From a virus (Duplodnaviria > Heunggongvirae > Uroviricota > Caudoviricetes), in the IMG/VR virus record IMGVR_UViG_3300010369_000001: DNA of 64,000 bases. One strand, 5' to 3'. Positions within the stretch are counted from its first letter, which is position 1. Each line of letters opens with the position of its first letter. The notes below the pieces were generated by a model. It was given only the letters and a program-made list of their open reading frames with translations. It did not search any database and had not been told where the DNA came from. The position numbers and the translations under genes were made by a program. Shown piece by piece: positions 3,649 through 55,633 of the stretch.

Positions 3649-4035
3649 TCAAGGGGTAGGGCGGAAATTTACTTCCTGAATAAGCTTAATAAATTCGGAA
3701 TTATCTTGAATAAACCTCGTAAATATAGTGGTAAGCGCCTCAATTTCGCGTTCTTTAGGTTGTTTTAACCCGCTGTGATAATAGGCGGCGTGAACAATTT
3801 CGTGCATTAATGTTCCAACATAGGTATCTCGTTCTACCTTATCAGAAACCTCAATTAGTCCTTTGGTGTAAGAAATCGTACCACAAATCTCCCTGTCGCC
3901 CTCATTTTCAAGCCTTTTTTGCTCAACCCGGTAATTTACTGGGCCAACTCTGATGGAATTTATTAGACTCATTCCGTCAGTATACCAGAAAAGTGGACAC
4001 GTCGCCATCGAAGGCGATTCCGAAAATTGCATCAA
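3649..4035 (-). CDS. putative zinc metallopeptidase (HExxH)
   Basis: GTLMHEIVHAAYYH contains HExxH in a small protein; the true start may be an internal Met (MATCPL.. or MSLINS..). Confidence 0.4.
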   Translation of the reverse strand: MMQFSESPSMATCPLFWYTDGMSLINSIRVGPVNYRVEQKRLENEGDREICGTISYTKGLIEVSDKVERDTYVGTLMHEIVHAAYYHSGLKQPKEREIEALTTIFTRFIQDNSEFIKLIQEVNFRPTP

Positions 4036-4359
4036 ATCAAGATACTACGTGTGTATCCGAGAGAAATAAATTCAGCTACCTTCTAGCTCGGCCTAGAAAA
4101 TAACCTACACTAACCATACTTTCTTTCCTATTTCGTGGGGCTAGTACGGTAAAACAGGGCAATCTTAGTGGCGCCGGGTTTTCTCTACCAAGATTATCTC
4201 GATCAACCCGCTCGCTAAGCAGCGAGGGCGAAAGCTCTATTTTTGCCTTCTAAAATGTTTGCAGCTCGATTTTTACGCAGCCAACGAGGCCATCTGCGAC
4301 ACGCACTTTAATCTTCAGCTAATCACGTCGATCCCTTTCGTGCCCAAGATATTATTATA

Positions 4360-38259: not shown

Positions 38260-39120
38260 TTATGTCGCAATAAATGCAGCGTCGTGATGCCACGGGGATT
38301 TCCAGGCGTCAATGCCAATGCTATTATGGGCAGCGCTGATGGCTTGGATAGTTGCCATCACTGCCCGAGAGCTAGCACCAGTTGGTGACAATGCTACGCG
38401 CTGTGATGGATGATCATCATCAAAATAGACAATTCCCGCACGATAAGGCGCATTCGTTTCAACCAGAATAAGGTACATCTTGCTATCGACCAAACCAAGC
38501 TTGGAAAATACCAAACGATTGAAAGATAGCTTGAATATGGCCTCATTAACCAAAGAATCTAGTCCAGAACGACTATCTCGATCAAGAGTTGGAGTGCAGA
38601 CTAGTTGGCAGACACAACCACCGGCTGAAATATAGTCAACATGCGCATAGCAATTATTATTGTCAATGTTAGCTGTCCCGTGAATACTAAATTGCCCGCC
38701 TGGTTTCACCAAATGGGCTAAAGTCGTAGAAAATCCTCCGTCGACCTGCTGCTTAAGCCCCGCATAAATAGCTTTTGCTTTCTCTATGTGGTCTTTATGA
38801 ACCGGCGTAAGACCTTGTGCCCTAGCACCTCTCGCCCAATCCTCATATTTCTGGGTATCAGCCCCAAAAGGTTTATGAGTCTTCGGATTTATAGGTGAAC
38901 TACCATCTAGCTTAAGTGTGGCATCCTCGCCACCAAAGAACAAACCTTTAAGAATCATTTCAACCGGATGTTTAATTACCGGCGGTTTCTCGTAGACTTC
39001 CTTGATATATGTCCAATAAAAGGTATAAGGACATTTATAAAAAGCTAGAACAGAATTAGCGTTGAGATGATAATTAGGATATTGAATATCCGACGTAAAA
39101 TCAATTGTTTCAAATGCCAT
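38260..39120 (-). CDS. hypothetical protein, possible PD-(D/E)xK-type nuclease
   Basis: GLVDSKMYLILVETNAPY loosely resembles RecB/Cas4-like motifs II and III plus QxxxY. This is weak. Confidence 0.35.
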   Translation of the reverse strand: MAFETIDFTSDIQYPNYHLNANSVLAFYKCPYTFYWTYIKEVYEKPPVIKHPVEMILKGLFFGGEDATLKLDGSSPINPKTHKPFGADTQKYEDWARGARAQGLTPVHKDHIEKAKAIYAGLKQQVDGGFSTTLAHLVKPGGQFSIHGTANIDNNNCYAHVDYISAGGCVCQLVCTPTLDRDSRSGLDSLVNEAIFKLSFNRLVFSKLGLVDSKMYLILVETNAPYRAGIVYFDDDHPSQRVALSPTGASSRAVMATIQAISAAHNSIGIDAWKSPWHHDAAFIAT

Positions 39121-39512
39121 TAATGAGTTGCTCGAAGCCTATTGGTTAGCTGGGTCTTTGCATTAGCTTCCTTGCGAACAGCATTGCAACACGGACACCG
39201 GCGTTGAGTTACTTTATATAGCAGCCACTTACAGCCTGAATAGGTGCGAGAAAATTGATCAATGTCAGTTTCATTAACATCATCATCTTCTGCGCCCATG
39301 TCAAGAAGCTGACCTGCAAACCAGTTGAAATATCGCATACGCCCTTCATTCTGGTTGAGTAATAATTTAGCTTCACAGTATAGTCCTGTGCCCACTAAAT
39401 AATCTAATAATTCATCCGTTGTAACATAAACTTCTTCAATAGTTTCATTACCCACGTCGGTAGCAGAAATTCCTTTTTCGCACGCTGTGGTGCTATTTTT
39501 TTTGTTTGTCAT
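39120..39512 (-). CDS. hypothetical protein
   Basis: 130-aa ORF. Confidence 0.45.
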   Translation of the reverse strand: MTNKKNSTTACEKGISATDVGNETIEEVYVTTDELLDYLVGTGLYCEAKLLLNQNEGRMRYFNWFAGQLLDMGAEDDDVNETDIDQFSRTYSGCKWLLYKVTQRRCPCCNAVRKEANAKTQLTNRLRATH

Positions 39513-39961
39513 CTTCTACGAAAAAGTCCGCGTCTTACTTGTTGCGGCGTACCGGAGTAAGATAATCCAGTATTGCCCCTAAACGTCCAATATGTTTCTC
39601 CGTTTTTCTCAGCCGCACCTAAGCCTGCACTAGTCAAAGTCGGACTTAATAATAATCGTCGGTGCCCAGGAGAATCTCTCCACTGCTCAAATACTCGTAG
39701 CGCGCTAGCAACTCCCTTAAGTGTATTTGTTGCAATATTCTCACGATAATGACAGCCGTGCCTAAAGCCTGTTTTTGTCATAGTATTTGACCAGCTGCTG
39801 GCATCGAAAGTTAGACATTCATCGTATTCTAGTTTCGGTAGATTATTTGCGGTACGAAAAGCATTGATTTGTTCAAACGCAATCAATTCTATTTCTTCAG
39901 CTAAAACAGCAGTCGAAAGAATGAATACTGGAACAACAAGAATAGCTCTGAGTCTTTTCAT
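39509..39961 (-). CDS. secreted CAP/SCP (PR-1-like) domain protein with Sec signal peptide
   Basis: Signal peptide MKRLRAILVVPVFILSTAVLA. CAP motifs: INAFRTANNLPKLEYDECL, GFRHG, ENIA and WRDSPGHRRLLL. Confidence 0.6.
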   Translation of the reverse strand: MKRLRAILVVPVFILSTAVLAEEIELIAFEQINAFRTANNLPKLEYDECLTFDASSWSNTMTKTGFRHGCHYRENIATNTLKGVASALRVFEQWRDSPGHRRLLLSPTLTSAGLGAAEKNGETYWTFRGNTGLSYSGTPQQVRRGLFRRR

Positions 39962-40033
39962 TTTTATTTAAGTTGAATGCAAAGAGGGGCCAGGAAAATT
40001 CCCAGCCCCTCAATCAAATGTTTCTAAATATGT

Positions 40034-41050
40034 TTAGACCGCCTCAATTTCTGACCCACATGCCGGGCAGAAAGAAATGCACCCAATTGAGTCTTCAACA
40101 GCCCGAACGCTTTCTTCCCAGCAACAATTACTGCATACGTAATTCTCAAACTCTAGTTCATCATCGTCACAGTCTTCATACTCATCATAGTCACAGTCTT
40201 CGTCACAATCATCCACCGGCGCTACATATTTAGCTCGGCAGCGGCGATATTTGGAATCTCCGTAAAGGTCAGCAAAGAAATTCTCAGTCTTATATCTAAG
40301 ACCTTCAGTGCTATACACAATGTCAATATTGAGTAATCCGTCAACCTCGCCCACAACTGTATACTCGCTACAGCGTAGCTTTGCATGGTTATAATCATTA
40401 GGTACGGAAACAACGTGAGCTGGGTTGACTTTCACGAGCACATATTTGGAATCGGCCCGCCCGAAGTCCTGAGCATACGCATAAGTACCGACGTGAAGTC
40501 CAGCGGAGCATGCAATTTTCGGATCGAAAGTGACATCTTTACGTGGCATGACAACACGCTTACCGACGCTGTTATCCATAGTGCCGGAATGCAGGTCGAG
40601 GAAGTCGGGTCGAACGGCTTTATAACCTAAGAAGCAACCATCTTCGGTAAGCGGGAAATTCCCGTGCTTCAAGAACGAGCCTAGCTGCTTGATTGATTCC
40701 CAGTGCGGATTCAAGAACATATTGTCAAGAAACAGCTTAAGCGCATCACACGAAGTGTTGTAGCTGTTAATAACAGCCACAAGAACTGGGTCATCAATAG
40801 TGCGCCCACGATATTCAACCGACTCTTTAGTGCGGGTAAGCATTTCTTGATTATCGTATGTCTCAGTTGCCGCAAATCGGACTTCAAAAGCCTTATAAAT
40901 CCGCAAAAACTCGTCAGCCTCGCCATCCATCGCGGCTTGCTTTAATTCATTATAATTTGGATGCTTATTGGAAACCTGAAAGAATTCATCTCCAACATAA
41001 GCGTTAATATTACCGGCGGCGTTAATGTGAACTGTAAAGTTAGTCTTCAT
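40034..41050 (-). CDS. hypothetical protein with acidic Cys-rich C-terminus
   Basis: DDCDEDCDYDEYEDCDDDELEFENYVCSNCCWEE...CPACGSE. Confidence 0.5.
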   Translation of the reverse strand: MKTNFTVHINAAGNINAYVGDEFFQVSNKHPNYNELKQAAMDGEADEFLRIYKAFEVRFAATETYDNQEMLTRTKESVEYRGRTIDDPVLVAVINSYNTSCDALKLFLDNMFLNPHWESIKQLGSFLKHGNFPLTEDGCFLGYKAVRPDFLDLHSGTMDNSVGKRVVMPRKDVTFDPKIACSAGLHVGTYAYAQDFGRADSKYVLVKVNPAHVVSVPNDYNHAKLRCSEYTVVGEVDGLLNIDIVYSTEGLRYKTENFFADLYGDSKYRRCRAKYVAPVDDCDEDCDYDEYEDCDDDELEFENYVCSNCCWEESVRAVEDSIGCISFCPACGSEIEAV

Positions 41051-43487
41051 CGTAATCTTCTCTCTCTTCTTCTGTAGGTATGTTTACTAATGTTTTTGCA
41101 CAGGCTAAATTATGTCGACCTTGCAAAATTGTTGCGTTAAATATTAATTGATCTTGACTTTTAAATAGATACGGATGTGTCCGTAAAAGCGACCTTACTT
41201 CTTCATTGAACCTGTCAATCCATGGCCGGTATATTTCGACAAATTTACTAACCGGAAACATCCACCTGGTTAGTACATTATATTGGTCTACTATTAGCGT
41301 AGCTTCATCACTGCGTTTACCGCTGTAATATTTTGTGTGACAGCTGTTAATCGGACTGTCGTAGAACGTGTCCACTTTATTCCACCTATGTGTCACCATA
41401 GTGTCCATTATACGAGAAATAAACGGATAGGTGACATAGTCACCTAACCAAATTTGACGCTGCTGGCGCATCCAAGAAAACATTAATGCAGCTTCTCGTG
41501 TAAATGGGTCACTTATTCTATGCCTGGCATAACTATTAGCGCGACAATCATTATATCGATGATTGCCTGAATCCTCATAAAACCTGTAGTCTGTCATCAT
41601 GTAGGCCATAAAGCCCATCCAATTATCAACAAATTTCTTCTCAAGCGCTTTAGTCCAGGCCGGCAATAATTCTGTTAATTGCTTGTCATAATTTTTGACA
41701 AATCGTGGCCGAATAAAACAAATCCGCTGAGCAATATCTTTATGATTTTTTAGTCCTAAAGCACTAGCAATTTTCTCAAAAGAAGTATCAGTTAACTTAT
41801 TATCAATTTCACGAATAGAATCACTCCATTTTCTAACCTTACAAGAACCGTTAAAGAATTCTGTTATGTTAAATGTATTTTCTTCCTCAAACGGAATATA
41901 ATACTCAAATGGTGAAATATCTTCAATGCGGATAAAATTGTGTTTAAACTCAAATATGCCCGTGACTCTAGGCGCGGCAGGTAAACTGGATACCGGGGCG
42001 GCTGAAGTGCTGCGAGCTTTCTTTGGGACTGTTTTAAGGAAATTACTAAGCGTATCAGTTTTAACCGGTACTTTTTGCTTAATTAATTCATCTTCAAGAA
42101 GCTTGATGTCAGCTGCATTAGTTTTACTATCATATCTACCAATTATGACGGTGTTAGCTGGAAAATGCTCAGCTGCCGTTTTAACGCCCTTAGCGTCGTA
42201 AGAAACAAGATTAACTGGTGTTGTCGGTGTGACATTTTTAGCGGCTATAATTGCCCCGCCAAATTTACCCATACCTCGCTGACCAGTATTTTTACCTATG
42301 ATGGCATTTCCAGTACCTATTGAACTAGTATAGCACGCCTGTACTTCAATTGCACTTGATTGAATCCAGAGCGATTGTTGCGAAAAAGAAATACGATAAC
42401 TTAGGGCATCGTCAAGAATGTGATGCGTTGTGTGAAAGTTATGTATATCGTTGGCTACTTTAGCTACATATGAGTCGTCGTACTTGTTATATGCGGCATA
42501 AACTTCCCACTGCCCCAGGCCTTTAATCTCTGCGTTAAATCGTTCAGCAATCCGTTTCTTAGCTAGCGCGTGCATTCCTTTGAATTTCTTAATATCGTCG
42601 TCTGACCAGGTCAAACTTTCACGAGACGGAGTCGGCTCAAACGTATCAATTTCAACAAAGAAATCAATTGCACTATCGAAATCATGAGCTAGAGAATTTA
42701 ATAGGGGGTAACGATTGCAACCCATGATAATATAAGATTTTCGATCTTGACTCCCGTAATATGATGAGAAATTTTTAGCTCGCCGAGCTTTCCACTTGAA
42801 AATCTTTTCGTCACCCTCCATCACATATTCTGGTTTCTCAATTTCTGGAACCGTCGTTCCGACAAAATTAATTGGCACGTCAAAATATGGGTAGGCTTCT
42901 TTAGCTGCTTCCATAAACTTTGACACATCTTTAGGGTCAATCGCAAACTGAACCTTTAAGCCATTAGGTTCGTCAGTTTTAACTGGATTGCCGTCAAATA
43001 ACAGCTCAGGAATTTCTTCATCGTTCAATGCCACAATATATTGTGAACGCATCCCATTATAGAAAGACGTAACACCAAATGAATTTACATAGGAAAGCGG
43101 AGATTTAGAACCTAGTCCGAATTTACCGGTACATTGATTGGTCTCTCTTTTAGTAGACGCACCATAAGTCTGATACACCGTTTCAATTGTCTCTGTGGAC
43201 ATTCCGGTACCATAGTCCCGAATGTAGAAGATTGGCGTATCTGTACGAGGCAAATGAATATCAAAAGCTTTATCTTTAGTGCCCGCTTCTGCCTGCGCAT
43301 CCTTTGCATTTGTTGAAAGTTCCCTAATAATTGCTAATACTTGATTCGAGTATAGCCCAGCACTAAACATTCTAAAGGTCTCAGCCCCAATAGCTATTTG
43401 GAACGTGCCCTTACTCTTAAAGTAATTTACATTATGATTTTCTGTCATATTTTTCCTTGCGTCAGGTAATTTTATACGTCTCGACAT
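41040..43487 (-). CDS. GHKL-family ATPase (Hsp90/MORC/HATPase_c_3-like N-terminal domain), 815 aa
   Basis: N-box IIRELSTNAKDA (E..N..DA), G1 box IRDYGTGMS (D.G.GM) and G2 box GKFGLGSKS in order, within the first ~130 aa. Confidence 0.6.
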   Translation of the reverse strand: MSRRIKLPDARKNMTENHNVNYFKSKGTFQIAIGAETFRMFSAGLYSNQVLAIIRELSTNAKDAQAEAGTKDKAFDIHLPRTDTPIFYIRDYGTGMSTETIETVYQTYGASTKRETNQCTGKFGLGSKSPLSYVNSFGVTSFYNGMRSQYIVALNDEEIPELLFDGNPVKTDEPNGLKVQFAIDPKDVSKFMEAAKEAYPYFDVPINFVGTTVPEIEKPEYVMEGDEKIFKWKARRAKNFSSYYGSQDRKSYIIMGCNRYPLLNSLAHDFDSAIDFFVEIDTFEPTPSRESLTWSDDDIKKFKGMHALAKKRIAERFNAEIKGLGQWEVYAAYNKYDDSYVAKVANDIHNFHTTHHILDDALSYRISFSQQSLWIQSSAIEVQACYTSSIGTGNAIIGKNTGQRGMGKFGGAIIAAKNVTPTTPVNLVSYDAKGVKTAAEHFPANTVIIGRYDSKTNAADIKLLEDELIKQKVPVKTDTLSNFLKTVPKKARSTSAAPVSSLPAAPRVTGIFEFKHNFIRIEDISPFEYYIPFEEENTFNITEFFNGSCKVRKWSDSIREIDNKLTDTSFEKIASALGLKNHKDIAQRICFIRPRFVKNYDKQLTELLPAWTKALEKKFVDNWMGFMAYMMTDYRFYEDSGNHRYNDCRANSYARHRISDPFTREAALMFSWMRQQRQIWLGDYVTYPFISRIMDTMVTHRWNKVDTFYDSPINSCHTKYYSGKRSDEATLIVDQYNVLTRWMFPVSKFVEIYRPWIDRFNEEVRSLLRTHPYLFKSQDQLIFNATILQGRHNLACAKTLVNIPTEEEREDYDED

Positions 43488-43548
43488 CAGTTAAATTTCA
43501 AAGTTGTTTTAGGGTTTCGGGGGCCAGGGCCCCCAAAAAAGAAGATGT

Positions 43549-44148
43549 TTAAGATCCAATATAGGTAGCGAGATCAACAGCTAACACGTCACAGCATGCC
43601 CCATTGCGCGGATCGAAAATTTGAAGTGTCTTGCCGTCAGGATAACGTCGAATTTCCCGACGACCAGTAGACGTCTCAATCCAGCCCGCATGTACTGCCT
43701 TAGGTTTTGGAGCTGGGACAATTTCATACGCATAAATGTGGTCATAGCTGGCTCGCATCTCAGGGTACATGCCCACTGCGCTGAACGCATCATTAGCGCC
43801 CTCTTTATCAAGATCCCAGCGCCTACCTTGACAGCACGCTTCTTCGCCAACGGTGATAAGATAACGACTTAAACAGATTTGACGGAGCGGTTTTTCAGCG
43901 TACATGCGAATCTTGCCACAATCATTAACTGCATCACTAATTAAATAAGCGCCGCGGCATCCATTAGCCGGGTTAGTAAACAAGATGTTAGCTCTAAGAA
44001 GCTCACGATCCCGACAAGGAACAGTGGTGTCCTCGATTTCACAAGTATAAATTTTTGTATAGTCTTGAATTTTTACAGGATTACTAATCATTTTTGAATG
44101 CTTTAATAAAATTAATTGTTGTTTTTGTCGATTCAGGTAATAACTCAA
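43549..44148 (-). CDS. hypothetical protein
   Basis: 199-aa ORF; probable real start at the internal Met (MISNPV..). Confidence 0.45.
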   Translation of the reverse strand: MSYYLNRQKQQLILLKHSKMISNPVKIQDYTKIYTCEIEDTTVPCRDRELLRANILFTNPANGCRGAYLISDAVNDCGKIRMYAEKPLRQICLSRYLITVGEEACCQGRRWDLDKEGANDAFSAVGMYPEMRASYDHIYAYEIVPAPKPKAVHAGWIETSTGRREIRRYPDGKTLQIFDPRNGACCDVLAVDLATYIGS

Positions 44149-44740
44149 ACTGCTCGACAGTACAGTTATTCGTTAACCAGGCGAACATTGCGCCTATCAC
44201 TTTACTTCTTGGCTCTGCATGTACGATTCTAATTATGCTGTGAACTGGCATGTAATGATAGTCATAGCTATCTAATAGCTCATTACATAAGCTTTCATCG
44301 TCCCCTTCATGCCGCTGAAAGAGCCATTTATCTACATGTGTTCTAAATCTATTTGTTACTGTATGCCGTATCCAGGCAATCGAACAAAGTATTTTCAAAG
44401 ACACTAGCGGTCTTGCACACTTAGGCTCATCTATAACAGCTGAAAAATCCTCAAACTCAACAGCATGAGGAAATATTGTGTCTTTAGTGTATGCGTACGC
44501 AAGACACCAAAGCTTCAAATGTGTTCCTACCTCTTCATGAATTAACCGCAATAAAACATGCTTATTAGCGCAAAAAAGCAGCTCACACAGTTTTTCATAG
44601 CTATGCGGATGTCTCACATAGCCCGTATCATTAAAGAGAAGATTAGAGTGCTTAAAATCTAATAATTTAAGATATATTGATTCTTGGTCTAAAGGTTTGC
44701 TGTTGTAGGCGAATGCCTGAGCAGGTAGTCTTGGCCCCAT
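44084..44740 (-). CDS. hypothetical protein
   Basis: 218-aa ORF. Confidence 0.45.
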   Translation of the reverse strand: MGPRLPAQAFAYNSKPLDQESIYLKLLDFKHSNLLFNDTGYVRHPHSYEKLCELLFCANKHVLLRLIHEEVGTHLKLWCLAYAYTKDTIFPHAVEFEDFSAVIDEPKCARPLVSLKILCSIAWIRHTVTNRFRTHVDKWLFQRHEGDDESLCNELLDSYDYHYMPVHSIIRIVHAEPRSKVIGAMFAWLTNNCTVEQFELLPESTKTTINFIKAFKND

Positions 44741-44742
44741 AT

Positions 44743-45813
44743 TTAAATTTTTGAAAAATCCAATTCAACGTTTTGTTCGTTTGCAGATTGAAAAAGCAAT
44801 TGTTTGAAAAGATCTCGAGATATGCCGCCAGGGTCAGTATTAGAGGGCAGGTAAAAAGGCATCACTTTTGTATACTGTCGACGTATTTTGTCCGCAGTTA
44901 CTTCAATGTGGTGCTTACTCTGTCTATCAGCTAGGGCTTTATCTGGATCTAATGCTATTACTATTAAAATATTATTACGCGAAACATGCGATATAAGTCT
45001 ATCGAGATTATACGGGCTGATGGATTTACCCATTAAGCCAATAGCTGGTGGTCCGATATTTATGCAATCAAAAGCGCCTTCAACAAGAATAACTGTTTTA
45101 TATTGTTTGGCGCTATCGTAATTGAATAAATATCTTTCAGTTTTCGAGCCGGGCATATTGTAGTATTTAGGTATTTTTTGCCCTTGCTCATTAACAAACT
45201 CCCTTTTATATGGAAGTCTAGCCATCCAGCTAATCTCTTTCTTATTTTCAATTACTGGGATAATTATTCGCGAGCGTGCTGTGCTGAGGTCGGAATAGTC
45301 ACACCACTTCACACCATAAGAGTGACTTAGGATGTTTATATCAAAATTTCTTTCATTACGGAGATATTGAATTGCAATATGGCCAGGATTTAGCTTATGT
45401 AGCGGTACACAAAATCCTGGAGCGACATATTCGCCAGCTACTCTAGTTGTACCTTGCTTCAAAAAAGCCTTAAGAACAGGTCGTCCAAATAGGACTTCAA
45501 AGAAAAGAATAGACTTTCGTTCAGGCACGTGTGCAAAACAGCTTTCATTATAGCAATTCACTAGATTCAAATTAGTGTGGCCAGTCAATGTGTCTGTAAC
45601 ACCCCATTCATAAGAGATATAAAGGCGCTGTCTTGTATCATTACAGTAGGGACAATTAACGCGAAAATTTTGTCCGCGTGAAATCAATTCACGTTCCTTT
45701 ATACGGCCGTTATAGGTTATACGCCATTCATTTTTAATGCCTTCATTTGCAATTTGAACATGACCGTTAAATTTACGTTTAAGAGCCGCACATAATTGTG
45801 GATTAAGATCCAT
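44743..45813 (-). CDS. DNA primase (zinc-ribbon + TOPRIM; DnaG/T7 gp4-like)
   Basis: Zinc ribbon NCPYCND...CYNESC; TOPRIM VILVEGAFDCINIG (Glu) and IVIALDPD (DxD). Confidence 0.8.
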   Translation of the reverse strand: MDLNPQLCAALKRKFNGHVQIANEGIKNEWRITYNGRIKERELISRGQNFRVNCPYCNDTRQRLYISYEWGVTDTLTGHTNLNLVNCYNESCFAHVPERKSILFFEVLFGRPVLKAFLKQGTTRVAGEYVAPGFCVPLHKLNPGHIAIQYLRNERNFDINILSHSYGVKWCDYSDLSTARSRIIIPVIENKKEISWMARLPYKREFVNEQGQKIPKYYNMPGSKTERYLFNYDSAKQYKTVILVEGAFDCINIGPPAIGLMGKSISPYNLDRLISHVSRNNILIVIALDPDKALADRQSKHHIEVTADKIRRQYTKVMPFYLPSNTDPGGISRDLFKQLLFQSANEQNVELDFSKI

Positions 45814-46456
45814 TAAAACCTCCTCTCTTATTAGATGGAGTTGTTAAGGCTTTTTCCGCATCCCAGCCTAATGTTAATCGCTTATGTGCACATTTATAAT
45901 TAATATTAAAATGTTCGCACCACTCAACTAATGTTTTTGTAGCATTATTAATCGTTAGGTTTACAGAATTTCGTCGATTTCTACAATTTTGTTTTTTTGT
46001 AACCCATCTACAATTATTAGGACTATACCCCGCATCATTATTAATACGATCTATTTCTAATACTATGCTATATCCGTTAATTTGTGCCCACTGCTGAAAA
46101 TTTTCAAAAGAATTACACCAGTCTTCACATATTGTAATGCCTCGACCGCCATAATGACAATAACCGAGATTATTTGGATTAAGACAACGTTCCTTTATAT
46201 CCGCCCAGATACCGTATAATCTCGTACGAGACACGCCATGTGTTTTATTTATCGTTTTTCGTGTTTCCTTATAAATACAGCCACAGCTATTTGTGTCACC
46301 AGATAGCAAATATTGCGATTTTACAATCGTTTCAGCGTTATTACACGAACAAACGCAACGCCAAAGAGCATTATTATGTGCATCTGTACCCGCAAACTCA
46401 ATTACAGTAAGCCGGCCAAATTTTTGACCAATTAAATTTTTAATTCGTTTGTTCAT
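45803..46456 (-). CDS. HNH homing endonuclease (HNH_3-like), third paralogue
   Basis: LYGIWADIKERC...HYGGRGITICEDW...DRINNDAGYSPNNCRWVT...N plus an N-terminal Cys cluster; overlaps the primase start by 11 nt. Confidence 0.7.
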   Translation of the reverse strand: MNKRIKNLIGQKFGRLTVIEFAGTDAHNNALWRCVCSCNNAETIVKSQYLLSGDTNSCGCIYKETRKTINKTHGVSRTRLYGIWADIKERCLNPNNLGYCHYGGRGITICEDWCNSFENFQQWAQINGYSIVLEIDRINNDAGYSPNNCRWVTKKQNCRNRRNSVNLTINNATKTLVEWCEHFNINYKCAHKRLTLGWDAEKALTTPSNKRGGFNGS

Positions 46457-46482: not shown

Positions 46483-46740
46483 TTAAGTATTTAGCTCTCT
46501 AATTACATTGCCAATAGCTGTTTTTGCGTTTTGAATCAACATCAAGGCATAGTCAACACATTCAAGCGTCTTAATTTCGCCAGTCTCAGTCGGAGGGGCA
46601 AAACACATTGCGCCAGCTAAATTTAGCTCCCTCACGGCCGTCTCACATTTAGAAATTATAGCGCTTTTAAGTGTGGCTAGCGCGTCTTCACGCGTCTGTT
46701 GGGTTGTACTCATGTCCTTCGGATAAATAATGTAGAACAA
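46483..46740 (-). CDS. hypothetical protein
   Basis: 85-aa ORF. Confidence 0.4.
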   Translation of the reverse strand: MFYIIYPKDMSTTQQTREDALATLKSAIISKCETAVRELNLAGAMCFAPPTETGEIKTLECVDYALMLIQNAKTAIGNVIRELNT

Positions 46741-47158
46741 ACAATAAATTACACGATGCGTTAGCTAAATGATCACACTCTTTGCCGTCTTGATCTAGTT
46801 CTTTATCGCCCTCCAAGAATAAATAAATATGTCGAAGGGCGTGATTCAAACAGCCAGCAATAGGTAAGCCGCGGCGCCAATTATGCGCCCCATAGCGGTC
46901 TGCCCCAGTTTTTAACACGGCAGCTATGCGATGTAATGATTTTTGAGGAATTAAATCGTAACGAACATCATCAGCGTCCTTTGAACGTTGTGCGCCCGTC
47001 GCAAACTGCCGCATATCTTCAGGCTCAGTGGTATTAAGTATTTTTTCCTTTTTCTCAAGACTTTCTTTTTTATTCGCGGGCTTAAGTGTATCAGAAGACC
47101 TATTTTCAGAATGAGTTAAATATTCATCAGTATTTGCGCTGGATCTATGATTCGCCAC
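46688..47158 (-). CDS. hypothetical protein; possible dATP/dGTP pyrophosphohydrolase-like domain
   Basis: RYDLIPQKSLHRIAAVLKTGADRYGAHNWRRG resembles, from memory, the conserved core of phage NTP-pyrophosphohydrolase domains. Low certainty. Confidence 0.3.
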   Translation of the reverse strand: MANHRSSANTDEYLTHSENRSSDTLKPANKKESLEKKEKILNTTEPEDMRQFATGAQRSKDADDVRYDLIPQKSLHRIAAVLKTGADRYGAHNWRRGLPIAGCLNHALRHIYLFLEGDKELDQDGKECDHLANASCNLLFVLHYLSEGHEYNPTDA

Positions 47159-47426: not shown

Positions 47427-47875
47427 TATTCTGCTCCCCCGAAAACTGAAGTTGCTGGATTAAAAGGCTCATAATGTTGCTCGGCAGCTGATTGCTCGGC
47501 AAACAGTTTATCCATCTGCATCGACCGGCTGTTTTCATTAACATTGGGTGTTCGTATCCAGCCAAAACTTGCTAATAGGTCATTTGCCATATTCGCCGCC
47601 CTAGCCGCCGCTAAGCCGCCAACAATTGCAACAGCCATTGCAAAGAATGGATTAAACATTACACAAGCGCCAATGCCTACAAAGAAAATACCCAAATAAT
47701 TAGAATAGCAGAAAGGGCAGCTCATTAGCTCGCCCAACCATTTTGTTGCCTTATTTTTCTCAAAATATTTACCAAGTGACCGCCACCAATTGCCAGCAGC
47801 TGAGTGGTGTAAGATTTCTGTTAGCTGCCATACGGCGGCACAGGATATGATGAACCAAAGCCCAAATGTGATCAT
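47426..47875 (-). CDS. hypothetical membrane protein (3-4 TM helices)
   Basis: FGLWFIISCAAVW, YLGIFFVGIGACVMF and FAMAVAIVGGLAAA. Confidence 0.45.
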   Translation of the reverse strand: MITFGLWFIISCAAVWQLTEILHHSAAGNWWRSLGKYFEKNKATKWLGELMSCPFCYSNYLGIFFVGIGACVMFNPFFAMAVAIVGGLAAARAANMANDLLASFGWIRTPNVNENSRSMQMDKLFAEQSAAEQHYEPFNPATSVFGGAE

Positions 47876-50241
47876 AGATTTTTAAGTAATTCAGCAGCGC
47901 TTATTTCAGTCTGCTCGTAACCTTGTTTTTCATATAATTTCTTCCGTTCAGCGGAAAAATGTTTAAATTCTGTACTCCAATAATCATAAAAGTCGTGAAC
48001 TACTCCATAAGGCTTATCGTCCCCCAGCCTAGCCACTCTGCCAGTTAGCTGAATATTGGCCACCTCTGATTTCAGCCCGCAGGCATTAATTAACACAGCT
48101 AAATTAGGGAAATCTACGCCCTCTCGCCATATGGCTGTGGCAATTACTCGTTTCAAGGTGCCTTTCTTAAACGCACCTCTAGCGCGATCTAAATCTGGCG
48201 TTTCCGAGCTAACTACTAGATAATTTGGTAAAAGCTGCCTTAAAGCCATCGCGTGCTTTATTGTTTCCACAATAATCAGCACCTGTGTATCTTCGTCGTA
48301 AGACTTAGCCGCCGCTGCAATTAAATTATTTCTGGGGGCATTGTACCAGATACCTCTGTGCTTCTTGTAAGCTGAATGGCATTTACCTACCGGATTATAT
48401 TGCAGATGAACTGGTACCCATTTTACCTTCACAGGAGCAACCATACCTTGCTTTGTAGCTTCTTTGGTATCAACTGTAATTAATTTTGGCCCCATCAAGC
48501 CTAGAAGACGGAATTGGGCCCCATCGCTTCTGTTAAAGCTACCTGTCAGCCCAAATATCCTTGGTTTGACCATCGTGGAGATAGTCTTAAAAGTATCAGG
48601 CGCTGCAGCTAAATGGCAATTGCCGCTTATGAAAGAAAAGCCTTCTGACCTTACTACAATATTGCCGCTCGGCACCTCCACACAATAAACGTTGCCTGAA
48701 TACTTCTCTAATTCATGTGTAACGTTTTTAAACGTATTGTGCTCTTTTTTCGACATGAATAATCTGTGCATATCTTGATAAGATTCTTTTCGATAATCTT
48801 TTTGTATGCTTTGAACACAACTAAAACCTCCCTGAATAGCAATGGCTGACACTAAATCTACATTTTCTTTTACACTGCTGCTGTAGTATTGGTAGTCTTT
48901 TTTTAGAATATATCCGTCCCACAATGATACCTCATTTACAAAATCAACTGCGTAAGCACGAGTTACCGCTACATTATTAAACCAAGTTATTAAATTTTTA
49001 GTTATTTCGAGTGGTGTTTTGATCACAAATCGAACATACCCTTCCCTGTCTATAGGTATTTCTTTAAATTCAACGCCTGACTCCAATAATATTTCTTTTA
49101 AGCGTAAAATTTTACGCTCTTTGACCAAGGATATAGACCAATATGCATAATCTCTTTTAACATAATTTCTAGTGCCGTCCGCCTGCAATGCAATAGCTAA
49201 TCGATCTATGGCCGCTAATGTAGCTATTTCATTAACGCCTATGCCTGACACAGGGTACTTATTGTATTGCGCACGAACTATATCAAGTATTGGTTTTTTG
49301 CAGACATTATCTTGCCTATCCAAATAAGTCTGATTATGTCCAACCGTCATTCGAACACTTCTTCCCTTATACAGAGTTAACTTAACTAAATCACCTGAAA
49401 ACTCTTTCTTAATATGTCGAAGTGGTTTTACAAACTGTATCGACCTATCTGCACTCCACTGCGCAATTAATTCTGTACCATCTAGCGAATCAAAACGTTT
49501 ATAACCTTTATTGGTTAATACCTCAGTATCTCCAGTAAAACATTCATCGCAAATATAAAAGTCATAGTCTTCTCCGAAACTAAGTATTTTAGTAAGGGAT
49601 TTATTTCCACATACCACGACCCTAGCTTGCTTAACTTGAGCTTGTGTAATAGACTTACCAGCTTGTTGTATAAAATACTTAGTGCCCGGCATATTATATT
49701 TGCGGATACGTTCACCTATAGTTGAATAAACTTGAGCTCGATAACTGCTTATAAGAATACGCGCTTTAGGGAACACTAGTGGCATTATACCAACAAGCTC
49801 ACTTTTACCAAAAGCAACAGAGCAAACTATAATACCGCCGGCATTTTTAGCCATTAGCTCCAAGACTTCTTTTTGTTTATAACGGAACTCAAAGTCAGCT
49901 GGGATTTTGTCCCATACGGGTACATAATTTTCAGCGGGTGATAGCTCAGTTATTTTATGCTCTACCTTTATTTTATGCTTAAGACAAAACGCTAAAATTG
50001 CGGGTAGGTACCCGTGAAAAGTCACAATCTGAGCGGGGATGGCTGTTGTACTTAAATCAACTGTTTGACCGTTAGTGTCATAACCGCTGCCGAGTATCTC
50101 TGGCGTAAGAGTTCTTTTATTAGCCTCTCTATCAAACCCTACAAGTGTGTACGAGAAGCATTTCTTTAGCTCGTAATACAAATGTAAGGGGAAGGAGCGA
50201 ATAATTAAAAGATTTCCATAAGTTTCAATGTCAATTATCAT
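47872..50241 (-). CDS. SF2 DExH-box helicase precursor interrupted by an intein (predicted mature helicase 481 aa)
   Basis: Walker A AFGKSE; motif II reconstituted across the intein as FYICDE|CHLAAAP (DECH); motif VI QLTGRVARLG. Confidence 0.75.
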   Translation of the reverse strand: MIIDIETYGNLLIIRSFPLHLYYELKKCFSYTLVGFDREANKRTLTPEILGSGYDTNGQTVDLSTTAIPAQIVTFHGYLPAILAFCLKHKIKVEHKITELSPAENYVPVWDKIPADFEFRYKQKEVLELMAKNAGGIIVCSVAFGKSELVGIMPLVFPKARILISSYRAQVYSTIGERIRKYNMPGTKYFIQQAGKSITQAQVKQARVVVCGNKSLTKILSFGEDYDFYICDECFTGDTEVLTNKGYKRFDSLDGTELIAQWSADRSIQFVKPLRHIKKEFSGDLVKLTLYKGRSVRMTVGHNQTYLDRQDNVCKKPILDIVRAQYNKYPVSGIGVNEIATLAAIDRLAIALQADGTRNYVKRDYAYWSISLVKERKILRLKEILLESGVEFKEIPIDREGYVRFVIKTPLEITKNLITWFNNVAVTRAYAVDFVNEVSLWDGYILKKDYQYYSSSVKENVDLVSAIAIQGGFSCVQSIQKDYRKESYQDMHRLFMSKKEHNTFKNVTHELEKYSGNVYCVEVPSGNIVVRSEGFSFISGNCHLAAAPDTFKTISTMVKPRIFGLTGSFNRSDGAQFRLLGLMGPKLITVDTKEATKQGMVAPVKVKWVPVHLQYNPVGKCHSAYKKHRGIWYNAPRNNLIAAAAKSYDEDTQVLIIVETIKHAMALRQLLPNYLVVSSETPDLDRARGAFKKGTLKRVIATAIWREGVDFPNLAVLINACGLKSEVANIQLTGRVARLGDDKPYGVVHDFYDYWSTEFKHFSAERKKLYEKQGYEQTEISAAELLKNL
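48619..49542 (-). mobile_element. intein (308 aa) with LAGLIDADG-like homing-endonuclease region, inserted between DE and CH of helicase motif II
   Basis: N-terminal CFTGDTEVLT; block B RMTVGHNQTY (T..H); LAIALQADGT (LAGLIDADG-like); C-terminal NVYCVEVPSGNIVV...FSFISGN followed by +1 Cys (CHLAAAP). Splicing gives ...ICDECHLAAAP. Confidence 0.65.
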
Positions 50242-54205: not shown

Positions 54206-55633
54206 TTAGTACGCGTTAGCTCTTACTTCATCAAAAGTATATTCTTTCATAATTTTTCCATCACGAAAGACTTCAACCATAGCTGGCTTCCACGTACGGG
54301 TTTGATCGTCATCTTTACCGCGACCCATAAAACTAGTTTCATTAACAGTATAAAACCCGCCGGTATCAGATTTAAACGTGGTAACAAGACCTCGTTTAGA
54401 CTGTTTACCGTGATCCGTAATTGGATCTTTGAACACTTCTTGCCAGCGGCCATCTCGCTCAATGGCGCTGCACTTAAAGGCCATTTTCTGGGTGTCTCTG
54501 TTAAGCTGTTGAAGTAACGCTCCGCCAGAACCGAAAGCGATGTTTTCAGCTGAATAGCCGCGCTGTTGCATTGCATACAAGATAGCATCTATACTTTCAA
54601 TATTAACGCCGTCGCCTTGAATAACGCGGATTTTGTTATTTAGCAGCTTGTAACCTTTATCGCTGATCGTTCCGCCAAACTCGCCCCAAAGAATATCCAT
54701 TACATTCTCATTACCCGTAACCAGTACTTGAATTGGATCACCAGAGTCAGGGCGGATGACCAACGTTCCATCTCGTTCAAGAATCATATCTCGTAATGGA
54801 TAACGACCCCACATTCGACAAGCTTCAAAAATATTGAAAGAATCAGATACACAGGCTACGATACCAGTCGGATAGGCTTCTAGCATATTCTTATAAGCTA
54901 ATATCTCGTCCTCGCGACCCCAGCTTGTTATTGTAGAATGCTCGCTAGCTGGAATACTAAAACCTGCCATATCTGCACCATAGTAATAGCTAGCATATTC
55001 TATAGCTGCCATTGTGTCAGTTCCCTTGAAATTAATCAAGTGAGCCATTCCGCCAAGGCCAGCACTCTCGCAAGAGCTAACTCCTCGAAAACCGAAATCA
55101 TGAAGCTTAAAATCAATACTATCAGCATTACCTTGTGTCTTCATTAGATACTTAGTAATGAGATGTTTCATTTCACGAGACTGTGTCGCAACAGTGCACG
55201 GATACCAAAGCTGCATTAACAATGTTTCAAGATAATTAGTTAACCAGTAACATTTCGGATCCGTATTACAAATAACTACCAACGGATGCCCAGTTGGGAC
55301 AGGAGTTCCTTCTGGAATTGCCCAAATAGAAACGGGTAACCTGCCATCATGTTTATCGTAAATATACTCCCAGCCTTCTTTATTAAACAATCCTGGGCCG
55401 AGATGCTGTTCCATGCGTTGTGCAGCATAGTCAATATTGCCTTTCGTGAAAAGCGGATTATACGGATGATGCAAATACTCTTTTAAAATATATTGCAATC
55501 CAAAGAAAACTGTGTCAGACCATTTGCCGCCGCGTGATTCAAGATAGGAATAAATAGTCTGCGTATTTGGCGGATATTGTCGCCAATGTGATACTTTATA
55601 TGAGTCAGTTAGTAACAGCAGGTTCGGTCTCAT
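54206..55633 (-). CDS. nadV: nicotinamide phosphoribosyltransferase (NadV/NAMPT)
   Basis: LHDFGFRGVSSCESAGLGGMAHLINFKGTDTM; length is consistent with NAMPT. Confidence 0.85.
   Translation of the reverse strand: MRPNLLLLTDSYKVSHWRQYPPNTQTIYSYLESRGGKWSDTVFFGLQYILKEYLHHPYNPLFTKGNIDYAAQRMEQHLGPGLFNKEGWEYIYDKHDGRLPVSIWAIPEGTPVPTGHPLVVICNTDPKCYWLTNYLETLLMQLWYPCTVATQSREMKHLITKYLMKTQGNADSIDFKLHDFGFRGVSSCESAGLGGMAHLINFKGTDTMAAIEYASYYYGADMAGFSIPASEHSTITSWGREDEILAYKNMLEAYPTGIVACVSDSFNIFEACRMWGRYPLRDMILERDGTLVIRPDSGDPIQVLVTGNENVMDILWGEFGGTISDKGYKLLNNKIRVIQGDGVNIESIDAILYAMQQRGYSAENIAFGSGGALLQQLNRDTQKMAFKCSAIERDGRWQEVFKDPITDHGKQSKRGLVTTFKSDTGGFYTVNETSFMGRGKDDDQTRTWKPAMVEVFRDGKIMKEYTFDEVRANAY

What the first reader, a model, noticed from the sequence alone, without database searches (positions are those of the whole stretch)
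41040..44740. 815-aa GHKL (Hsp90/MORC/HATPase_c_3-like) ATPase of unknown function, with two unknown downstream genes
The N-terminal 130 aa carry the ordered Bergerat-fold motifs E..N..DA, D.G.GM and G..G.G. The remaining ~680 aa have no TOPRIM or transducer I can recognise, so it is not a GyrB/topo II subunit. Prokaryotic HATPase_c_3/MORC-like ATPases are mostly known from defence and epigenetic-like systems. A large one in a lytic phage is unusual. It could be a host-takeover, DNA-compaction or anti-defence factor. A GC-rich palindrome (GGGGGCCAGGGCCCCC, 43514-43529) separates it from the next two unknown genes.
Basis: partly seen in the sequence, partly recalled or inferred. Interest (0 to 1): 0.65.

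Follow-up and report, generated by a model that had tools for sequence, protein, structure and literature searches.

The report
Phage rIIA–rIIB counter-defence gene pair
The "unknown" 815-aa ATPase is a divergent copy of rIIA, the classic phage T4 gene, and its partner rIIB follows it directly; together they form a widespread phage module that, in phages where it has been tested, blocks Rex-type suicide defences, so the finding is ordinary.

Summary
The ORF is real (41040..43487, minus strand). It more likely starts at 43448, which gives 802 aa. Its N-terminus carries intact GHKL ATPase motifs.

It is not an orphan. It matches the phage rIIA family (phrog_612, E=5.5e-81, residues 25-627). It is 35% identical to T4 rIIA over the N-terminal 190 aa. 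Its AlphaFold model aligns full-length with annotated RIIA proteins.

The two "downstream" genes lie upstream. The true downstream gene (40034..41050, overlapping by 11 nt) is rIIB, 46% identical to the T4 rIIB core.

Homologues of rIIA and rIIB occur in 2923 and 2898 of 50,697 GenBank phage records, so the gene is not unusual. Phage RB43 fuses the two into one protein.

The upstream genes sit in a variable slot: up1 is found in 2 of 4 related loci and up2 in 1 of 4. The palindrome is at 43519-43534, is not a canonical terminator and is probably absent from two relatives.

Verdict: a new, divergent member of a known family. Low interest.

The parts
41040..43487 (-). rIIA homologue. The ORF is 815 aa from the first ATG. 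The probable start is the ATG at 43448 (802 aa), which has an AAGGA ribosome-binding site.
   Evidence: phrog_612 'RIIA lysis inhibitor' E=5.5e-81, residues 25-627. BLASTP to T4 rIIA 35% identity, E=2e-26. Foldseek full-length matches to annotated RIIA proteins, E~1e-33. Database call P0001 is 802 aa.
42879..43385 (-). GHKL (Bergerat-fold) ATP-binding domain, about residues 35-203 of the 815-aa ORF. Motif I is E56/N60/D63, motif II is D91/G93/G95, and the motif III lid is G121/G124/G126/K128. Boundaries are approximate, read from the model's secondary structure.
   Evidence: Pfam HATPase_c_3 E=3e-8. Motifs translated. E, N, D, D, G, G, G, G and K are invariant in all 111 aligned homologues. 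Model pLDDT is above 90 here.
42429..42866 (-). Second, transducer-like domain of the ATPase module, about residues 208-353. It holds the family-wide (P/A)SRE motif (PSRES at 42615-42629, R289/E290 in 815-aa numbering). Boundaries are approximate.
41043..42428 (-). C-terminal region specific to rIIA (about 460 aa): a beta/alpha part, a low-confidence linker and an all-helical end. At the sequence level it is specific to this clade.
40034..41050 (-). rIIB homologue (338 aa). Its start overlaps the rIIA stop by 11 nt, which suggests translational coupling.
   Evidence: phrog_609 'RIIB lysis inhibitor' E=1.1e-51. 46% identity to T4 rIIB residues 178-307, E=2e-35. The gene at this position is called PF26926 Phage_T4_rIIB in four related loci. 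The junction was read.
40037..40333 (-). Clade-specific C-terminal extension of rIIB (about residues 240-338): a basic patch, an acidic D/E tract and a terminal CxxC...CPxCG motif that looks like a zinc ribbon. T4 rIIB lacks it.
   Evidence: Alignment A4. No GenBank phage rIIB homologue covers 80% or more of the query. The zinc-ribbon reading is an inference from the Cys pattern only.
39984..40011 (-). Terminator-like GC-rich hairpin 23 nt after the rIIB stop. It has 12 pairs and is followed by TTTGCATT.
43519..43534 (.). GC-rich palindrome in the 61-nt gap (100 nt to the probable 43448 start) between up1 and rIIA. On the coding strand it reads UUUU-GGGGGC-CCUG-GCCCCC-GAAA. No U-run follows it on either strand, so it is not a canonical intrinsic terminator.
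   Evidence: The RNA fold z-score is only -1.68. The equivalent gaps in L003 and L004 are only 24-31 nt, so it is probably not conserved; their sequence was not read.
43549..44091 (-). up1: a 180-aa protein of unknown function directly upstream of rIIA. Its start overlaps the up2 stop by 8 nt.
   Evidence: No Pfam, PHROG or NCBIfam hit and no GenBank phage hit. It is 28-33% identical to the gene at the same position in L003 and L004 only.
44084..44740 (-). up2: a 218-aa protein of unknown function between the primase and up1.
   Evidence: No family hits and no GenBank phage hit. It is 41% identical to a gene in L004 only, and absent from L003, L005 and L006.

Best explanation
Window 40034..43487 (minus strand) is an rIIA-rIIB operon of an uncultured large phage; the same protein lies on a 225-kb contig.

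Shown here. rIIA consists of an N-terminal GHKL ATP-binding domain with every catalytic residue intact. This is followed by a transducer-like second domain that carries an invariant Arg-Glu (the PSRE motif). Then comes a C-terminal region of about 460 aa found only in rIIA proteins. rIIB is translationally coupled to rIIA. In phage RB43 the two are fused into one polypeptide.

Inferred from structural relatives. Hsp90, MutL, MORC and type II topoisomerases all have this two-domain ATPase module. By analogy, rIIA would work as an ATP-operated dimeric clamp or switch: ATP binding closes the lid and dimerises the N-domains, and a basic residue of the second domain senses the gamma-phosphate. R289 (815-aa numbering) is the candidate. 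The variable C-terminus together with rIIB would then engage the target.

Inferred from experiments on homologues. The pair would neutralise a Rex-type abortive-infection system of the host or its prophages, which would otherwise depolarise the membrane and abort the infection. The pair is dispensable when no such system is present.

The upstream genes up1 and up2 occupy a variable slot and are not core parts of the module.
For: Identity. phrog_612 E=5.5e-81 over residues 25-627, and rIIB phrog_609 E=1.1e-51. T4 rIIA BLASTP E=2e-26. T4 rIIB 46% identity, E=2e-35. 2923 phage records carry homologues, the best of them annotated rIIA. The 2898 rIIB records have a near-identical taxon distribution. 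The model aligns full-length with RIIA proteins of KVP40, RB43, Arno18 and pf16 at E 1e-33 to 1e-29.

Linkage. The rIIA-then-rIIB order holds in four related metagenomic loci: the two genes overlap by 8-25 nt in three of them and are 13 nt apart in L005. The window's junction overlaps by 11 nt. The RB43 fusion protein matches the window's rIIA at its N-terminus (E=8e-35) and the window's rIIB at residues 913-1042 (E=2e-27).

Function, from the literature. Knock-down of divergent RIIA/RIIB (<40% identity, five genera) sensitises phages to lambda RexAB and has no effect without Rex (PMC11879866). rIIAB overcomes RexAB, and RIIB alone triggers CARD-gasdermin systems (PMC10312443). rIIA is described as a GHKL ATPase with a variable C-terminus in a poorly understood counter-defence system (PMC7824862).
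Against: No experiment exists for this phage, and its host is unknown. Whether that host carries a Rex-like system could not be tested.

The clamp mechanism is an analogy. ATPase activity and dimerisation have not been shown here, and I found no structural or biochemical paper on rIIA in the library.

Outside the first ~200 aa, sequence similarity to T4 rIIA is undetectable by BLAST. The C-terminal region has only 17 sequence relatives, so target specificity may differ from that of T4.

The locus sits among replication genes (primase, helicase, polymerase, SbcC). That also fits a DNA-related role.
Confidence: 0.85

Rival explanations
1. The protein is a DNA-acting GHL ATPase, that is, a MutL/MORC/topoisomerase-like clamp. 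It would act on replicating or recombining phage DNA, for example by tethering replication complexes to the membrane, rather than acting as a dedicated anti-defence factor.
Against: No TOPRIM, MutL_C, DNA_mis_repair or DNA-binding domain was detected. The C-terminal 466 aa match no DNA-enzyme fold. Hsp90 paralogues, which do not act on DNA, score higher than the DNA enzymes by both structure and sequence profile. Knock-down of RIIA/RIIB in five phage genera had no effect without Rex (PMC11879866).
Confidence: 0.08
2. The protein is a phage-encoded Hsp90-type chaperone that folds or stabilises phage or host client proteins.
Confidence: 0.04
3. The protein is a two-component-type sensor histidine kinase or another protein kinase of the GHKL superfamily.
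Against: No HisKA/DHp domain and no phospho-acceptor His region were found. Histidine kinases align over only ~100-120 residues and score far below the Hsp90, MutL and MORC modules. The protein has no predicted transmembrane segment (maximum Kyte-Doolittle 19-residue mean 0.76).
Confidence: 0.01

Closest known systems
Phage T4 rIIA / rIIB (NP_049616, NP_049889); PHROG families 612 and 609
   Same: GHKL N-terminus with identical motif order. The (P/A)SRE motif sits at about residue 277 in both proteins. rIIB lies directly downstream. The rIIB core domain is 46% identical. The full-length fold corresponds to annotated RIIA proteins.
   Different: Identity to T4 rIIA is only 35%, and only over ~190 aa. 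The C-terminal ~490 aa are clade-specific in sequence. The window's rIIB lacks the T4 N-terminal extension and instead has a C-terminal extension with an acidic tract and a Cys4 motif. The genes overlap by 11 nt here, whereas the T4 coordinates give an 11-nt gap.
Escherichia phage RB43 RIIA-RIIB fusion protein (YP_238977, 1049 aa)
   Same: It contains both modules. The N-terminal 300 aa are 31% identical to the window's rIIA, and residues 913-1042 are 38% identical to the window's rIIB.
   Different: In RB43 this is a single polypeptide. In the window it is two overlapping genes.
Hsp90 family (TRAP1, GRP94, HtpG)
   Different: There is no Pfam HSP90 match. The C-terminal 466 aa are unrelated to the Hsp90 M and C domains. 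rIIA is paired with rIIB.
MutL / MORC / type II topoisomerase ATPase modules (the GHL clade of GHKL ATPases)
   Different: There is no TOPRIM, MutL C-terminal endonuclease/dimerisation domain, CW finger or coiled coil. Sequence identity is 10-14%.

Membership tests
Phage rIIA family | N-terminal GHKL ATPase domain with motifs I-III intact | tested here: met
   Pfam HATPase_c_3 34.2 bits against a 25-bit cut-off. Motifs translated. Invariant in 111/111 homologues.
Phage rIIA family | Significant match to a family profile extending beyond the GHKL domain | tested here: met
   phrog_612 E=5.5e-81, residues 25-627 matched to profile positions 17-604 of 725. Six further RIIA PHROGs also hit.
Phage rIIA family | Direct similarity to the T4 rIIA archetype, including the (P/A)SRE motif at about residue 277 | tested here: met
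   BLASTP E=2e-26, 35% identity over residues 24-206 only. The motif is APSRE in T4 and PSRES in the window. The C-terminus is not alignable by BLAST.
Phage rIIA family | Full-length fold correspondence with annotated RIIA proteins | tested here: met
   Foldseek against BFVD: KVP40 RIIA E=3.3e-33, RB43 1.3e-30, Arno18 2.9e-32, with alignments spanning the whole targets. TM scores are only 0.34-0.47 because domain orientations differ.
Phage rIIA family | An rIIB gene immediately downstream in the same orientation | tested here: met
   40034..41050 overlaps the rIIA stop by 11 nt. phrog_609 E=1.1e-51. T4 rIIB E=2e-35. The arrangement is the same in L003-L006.
Phage rIIA family | Required for growth on hosts carrying RexAB-type exclusion and dispensable otherwise | not testable with these tools
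   Shown for T4, MM02, EdH4, SUSP1 and N4 homologues (PMC11879866). The host of this phage is unknown.
Two-component sensor histidine kinase | A DHp/HisKA dimerisation domain with a phospho-acceptor His next to the catalytic domain | tested here: not met
Type II topoisomerase ATPase subunit (GyrB/ParE/T4 gp39) | A TOPRIM domain, and a DNA_gyraseB transducer with the QTK-loop lysine | tested here: not met
   No Toprim or DNA_gyraseB Pfam hit. The NCBIfam top6b hit scores 21.8 bits against a 380.7 cut-off. Only fold-level similarity of the ATPase module was found.
Hsp90 family | Hsp90 middle and C-terminal dimerisation domains (Pfam HSP90) | tested here: not met
MutL / MORC | GHKL plus an S5-fold transducer, plus MutL_C (MutL) or coiled-coil/CW modules (MORC) | tested here: inconclusive

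The most novel reading that the evidence does not exclude
This metagenomic clade has about 12 members with full-length similarity. It may be an rII system retargeted to a defence other than lambda-type RexAB. Three observations point that way. The ~460-aa rIIA C-terminus has no solved structural analogue and almost no sequence relatives. The rIIB carries a clade-specific acidic tract and a zinc-ribbon-like tail. The variable slot just upstream (up1, up2) could hold accessory anti-defence genes, by analogy with the CARD-only inhibitor encoded next to rIIAB in Acinetobacter phage 133. Separately, the intact two-domain GHL module with an invariant Arg-Glu would make rIIA an ATP-driven dimeric clamp. 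That is a testable mechanistic handle on the 70-year-old rII problem.
Probability: 0.2. Interest if true: 0.45.

Novelty: new member of a known kind. Interest (0 to 1): 0.15.

Why it matters
The main value is as a correction. A gene flagged as an unusual orphan ATPase is the phage rIIA gene with its partner rIIB, one of the most widespread accessory modules of large virulent phages. It should be annotated as such.

There is modest added value. The model supports a complete Hsp90/MutL/MORC-type two-domain ATPase module in rIIA, with a family-invariant Arg-Glu. The remaining ~58% of the protein has no counterpart among solved structures. Since I found no published rIIA structure or mechanism in the library searched, divergent clades like this one are useful for defining the conserved core and for choosing constructs for structural work.

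Tried and rejected
Close relatives by DNA: a blastn of 7.5 kb against GenBank phages found only an 81-bp match inside rIIB of a Vibrio phage. The phage has no sequenced close relative.

Solved structures by sequence: the single protein found nothing meaningful. The 111-sequence profile found only Hsp90-family N-domains.

Upstream genes up1 and up2: no hit in Pfam, PHROGs or NCBIfam, none in GenBank phages by tblastn, and for up1 only itself in the 5.8-billion-protein search. Their function stays unknown. They are missing from L005 and L006, so I rejected the idea of a conserved 'gene trio'.

Palindrome as terminator: rejected, because no T-run follows it on either strand and the fold z-score is only -1.68. 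L003 and L004 have gaps of only 24-31 nt at that place, so it is probably absent there; I did not read their sequence. It is not part of a repeated hairpin family in the window.

Membrane anchoring: no transmembrane-grade hydrophobic segment in rIIA, rIIB, up1 or up2.

Context of the exact protein: the look-up of encoding contigs had no record for P0001, so the 225-kb source contig could not be read beyond the window.

Histidine kinase, topoisomerase subunit and Hsp90 chaperone readings were considered and rejected on missing defining domains.
Full report
OBSERVATION. The ORF exists at 41040..43487 on the minus strand and is 815 aa from the first ATG. Pfam HATPase_c_3 is above its gathering score (34.2 against 25 bits, E=3e-8), and no other Pfam domain appears at E<=0.1.

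Several details need correcting. The first ATG has no ribosome-binding site, while the second ATG (43448) has AAGGA 6 nt upstream. JGI and ENA gene calls use the second start (802 aa, P0001), and a Logan call uses 815 aa. The palindrome is at 43519-43534, five bases from the stated position. Most importantly, the gene is on the minus strand. The ORFs at 43549..44740 are therefore upstream, and the true downstream gene (40034..41050) was not in the finding.

IDENTITY. Against PHROGs the protein hits phrog_612 'RIIA lysis inhibitor' at E=5.5e-81 over residues 25-627, plus six more RIIA families. The downstream 338-aa protein hits phrog_609 'RIIB lysis inhibitor' at E=1.1e-51. BLASTP against T4 rIIA itself gives 35% identity over residues 24-206 (E=2e-26). 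The downstream protein is 46% identical to T4 rIIB residues 178-307 (E=2e-35).

A tblastn of rIIA finds 2923 of 50,697 GenBank phage records, the best of them annotated rIIA. rIIB finds 2898 records with almost the same taxon counts. A GHKL ATPase of this size is therefore common in large virulent phages, not unusual. Iyer et al. [quoted passage not shown]

LINKAGE TO rIIB. The rIIB start (ATG at 41050) overlaps the rIIA stop (41040-41042) by 11 nt. A terminator-like hairpin follows rIIB at 39984-40011. Four related metagenomic loci (L003-L006) show the same rIIA-then-rIIB order: the two genes overlap by 8-25 nt in three of them and are 13 nt apart in L005. The second gene is recorded as PF26926 Phage_T4_rIIB in all four.

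The single profile phrog_609 (1055 columns) matched the window's rIIA N-terminus at profile positions 20-205 and its rIIB at positions 820-1045. That implies fused members. I verified one: the RB43 'rIIA-rIIB' protein (1049 aa) matches the window's rIIA at its N-terminus (31% over 309 aa, E=8e-35) and the window's rIIB at residues 913-1042 (38%, E=2e-27). This natural fusion argues that the two proteins act as one physical unit.

RELATIVES AND THE C-TERMINUS. The word-indexed search of 5.8 billion proteins returned 1759 hits. Only 11 of them (P0002-P0012, 28-47% identity) cover 75-97% of the query, ten of them at least 94%. The rest share the N-terminal 33-40%. An exhaustive phmmer of the last 486 aa against 1.84 billion representatives found just 17 proteins. 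At the sequence level the C-terminus is therefore specific to this clade, consistent with 'highly variable'.

In a 111-sequence alignment the invariant residues (802-aa numbering) are E43, N47, D50, D78, G80, G108, G111, G113 and K115, together with R276 and E277. The last two form a (P/A)SRE motif that is also present in T4 (APSRE, residue 277) and in RB43.

A Bergerat fold is about 180 residues. Alignments of 250-350 residues mean that a second, transducer-like domain is also matched. The family profile's best PDB sequence match is TRAP1 (E=1.5e-7).

MECHANISM. Four things are shown here: an intact ATP site, a two-domain GHL-type module, coupling or fusion with rIIB, and family-invariant R-E in the second domain. 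The rest is inference. Hsp90, MutL, MORC and type II topoisomerases are ATP-operated dimeric clamps in which a basic residue of the second domain senses the gamma-phosphate (my own knowledge of these families). I infer that rIIA works the same way, with R289 (815-aa numbering) as the candidate sensor. The variable C-terminus and rIIB would provide target engagement.

The biological role is inferred from homologues. Knock-down of RIIA or RIIB in T4, MM02, EdH4, SUSP1 and N4 (<40% identity to one another) sensitises them to lambda RexAB and has no effect without Rex (PMC11879866). RIIB alone triggers CARD-gasdermin systems (PMC10312443). I found no structural or enzymological study of rIIA in the library.

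THE UPSTREAM GENES AND THE PALINDROME. up2 (44084..44740, 218 aa) and up1 (43549..44091, 180 aa by the ATG that overlaps the up2 stop) have no hits in Pfam, PHROGs, NCBIfam or GenBank phages. up1 has weak counterparts (28-33% identity) at the same position in L003 and L004 only. up2 has one (41%) in L004 only. L005 carries two unrelated genes there. The primase-to-rIIA interval is thus a variable slot, not a conserved trio. As a precedent only, a CARD-only anti-defence gene sits next to rIIAB in Acinetobacter phage 133.

On the coding strand the palindrome reads UUUU-stem-GAAA, and no U-run follows it on either strand. Its fold z-score is -1.68. The equivalent gaps in L003 and L004 are only 24-31 nt, so it is probably absent there, although I did not read their sequence. 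It may be a local RNA-stability or processing element, which I could not test.

CLADE-SPECIFIC VARIATION. The rIIB of this clade lacks T4's N-terminal extension. Instead it carries a C-terminal basic patch, an acidic tract and a CxxC...CPxCG motif, conserved in L003-L006. No GenBank phage rIIB covers 80% or more of the query.

VERDICT. This is a divergent but unmistakable rIIA-rIIB module in an uncultured large phage that also encodes a terminase, DNA polymerase, SbcC and NAMPT. It is a new member of a known kind and of low interest as a discovery. Its residual value lies in the well-supported two-domain ATPase model and in the C-terminal region, which has no structural analogue.

Noticed in passing
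window 3991..4345 (-): A phage-encoded tmRNA gene. Rfam RF00023 scores 69.7 bits against a gathering score of 47, E~5e-27, and the match is full-length (model positions 1-374). ARAGORN did not call it. It partly overlaps the mechanical ORF 3649..4035.
   Followed up: partly
window 48619..49542 (-), inside the helicase gene 47872..50241: A 308-aa intein (residues 234-541) is inserted in the DE|CH helicase motif II of an SF2 helicase. It starts with CFTGDTEVL, ends with SGN followed by a +1 Cys, and contains a LAGLIDADG-like LAIALQADG motif. Homologues in L003 and L004 lack the insertion; the gene is cut off at the start of L005.
   Followed up: partly
window 45803..46456 (-): A 217-aa ORF between the primase and the upstream genes. 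It is absent from that position in L003 and L004, but a homologue (37% identity) sits elsewhere in L005. It has no family hit. It could be a mobile gene such as a homing endonuclease; this is untested.
   Followed up: no
window 46688..47158 (-): A MazZ-like dATP/dGTP diphosphohydrolase N-terminal domain (PF18909, E=4.3e-20), conserved in the relatives. From my own knowledge this domain occurs in phages that modify or replace a DNA base. No PurZ-like gene was looked for.
   Followed up: no
window 39509..39961 (-): A 150-aa protein with a hydrophobic N-terminal signal-like segment and a CAP/SCP domain (PF00188, E=4.1e-15), directly after the rIIB terminator.
   Followed up: no
window 54206..55633 (-): Nicotinamide phosphoribosyltransferase (phrog_448, E=1.1e-163). 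Iyer et al. 2021 list metabolic systems that counter host NAD+ restriction among jumbo-phage adaptations.
   Followed up: no
window 38260..39120 (-): A 286-aa protein with no family hit. It is conserved (about 26% identity) downstream of rIIB in L005 and L006, but has no detectable homologue in L003 or L004.
   Followed up: no
GenBank LR756511.1 at 135830..138118 (uncultured 595-kb phage): This record holds the best GenBank hit for rIIB and the lowest-E-value hit for rIIA. There the rIIB-like match lies upstream of the rIIA-like match on the same strand, the reverse of the window's order.
   Followed up: no
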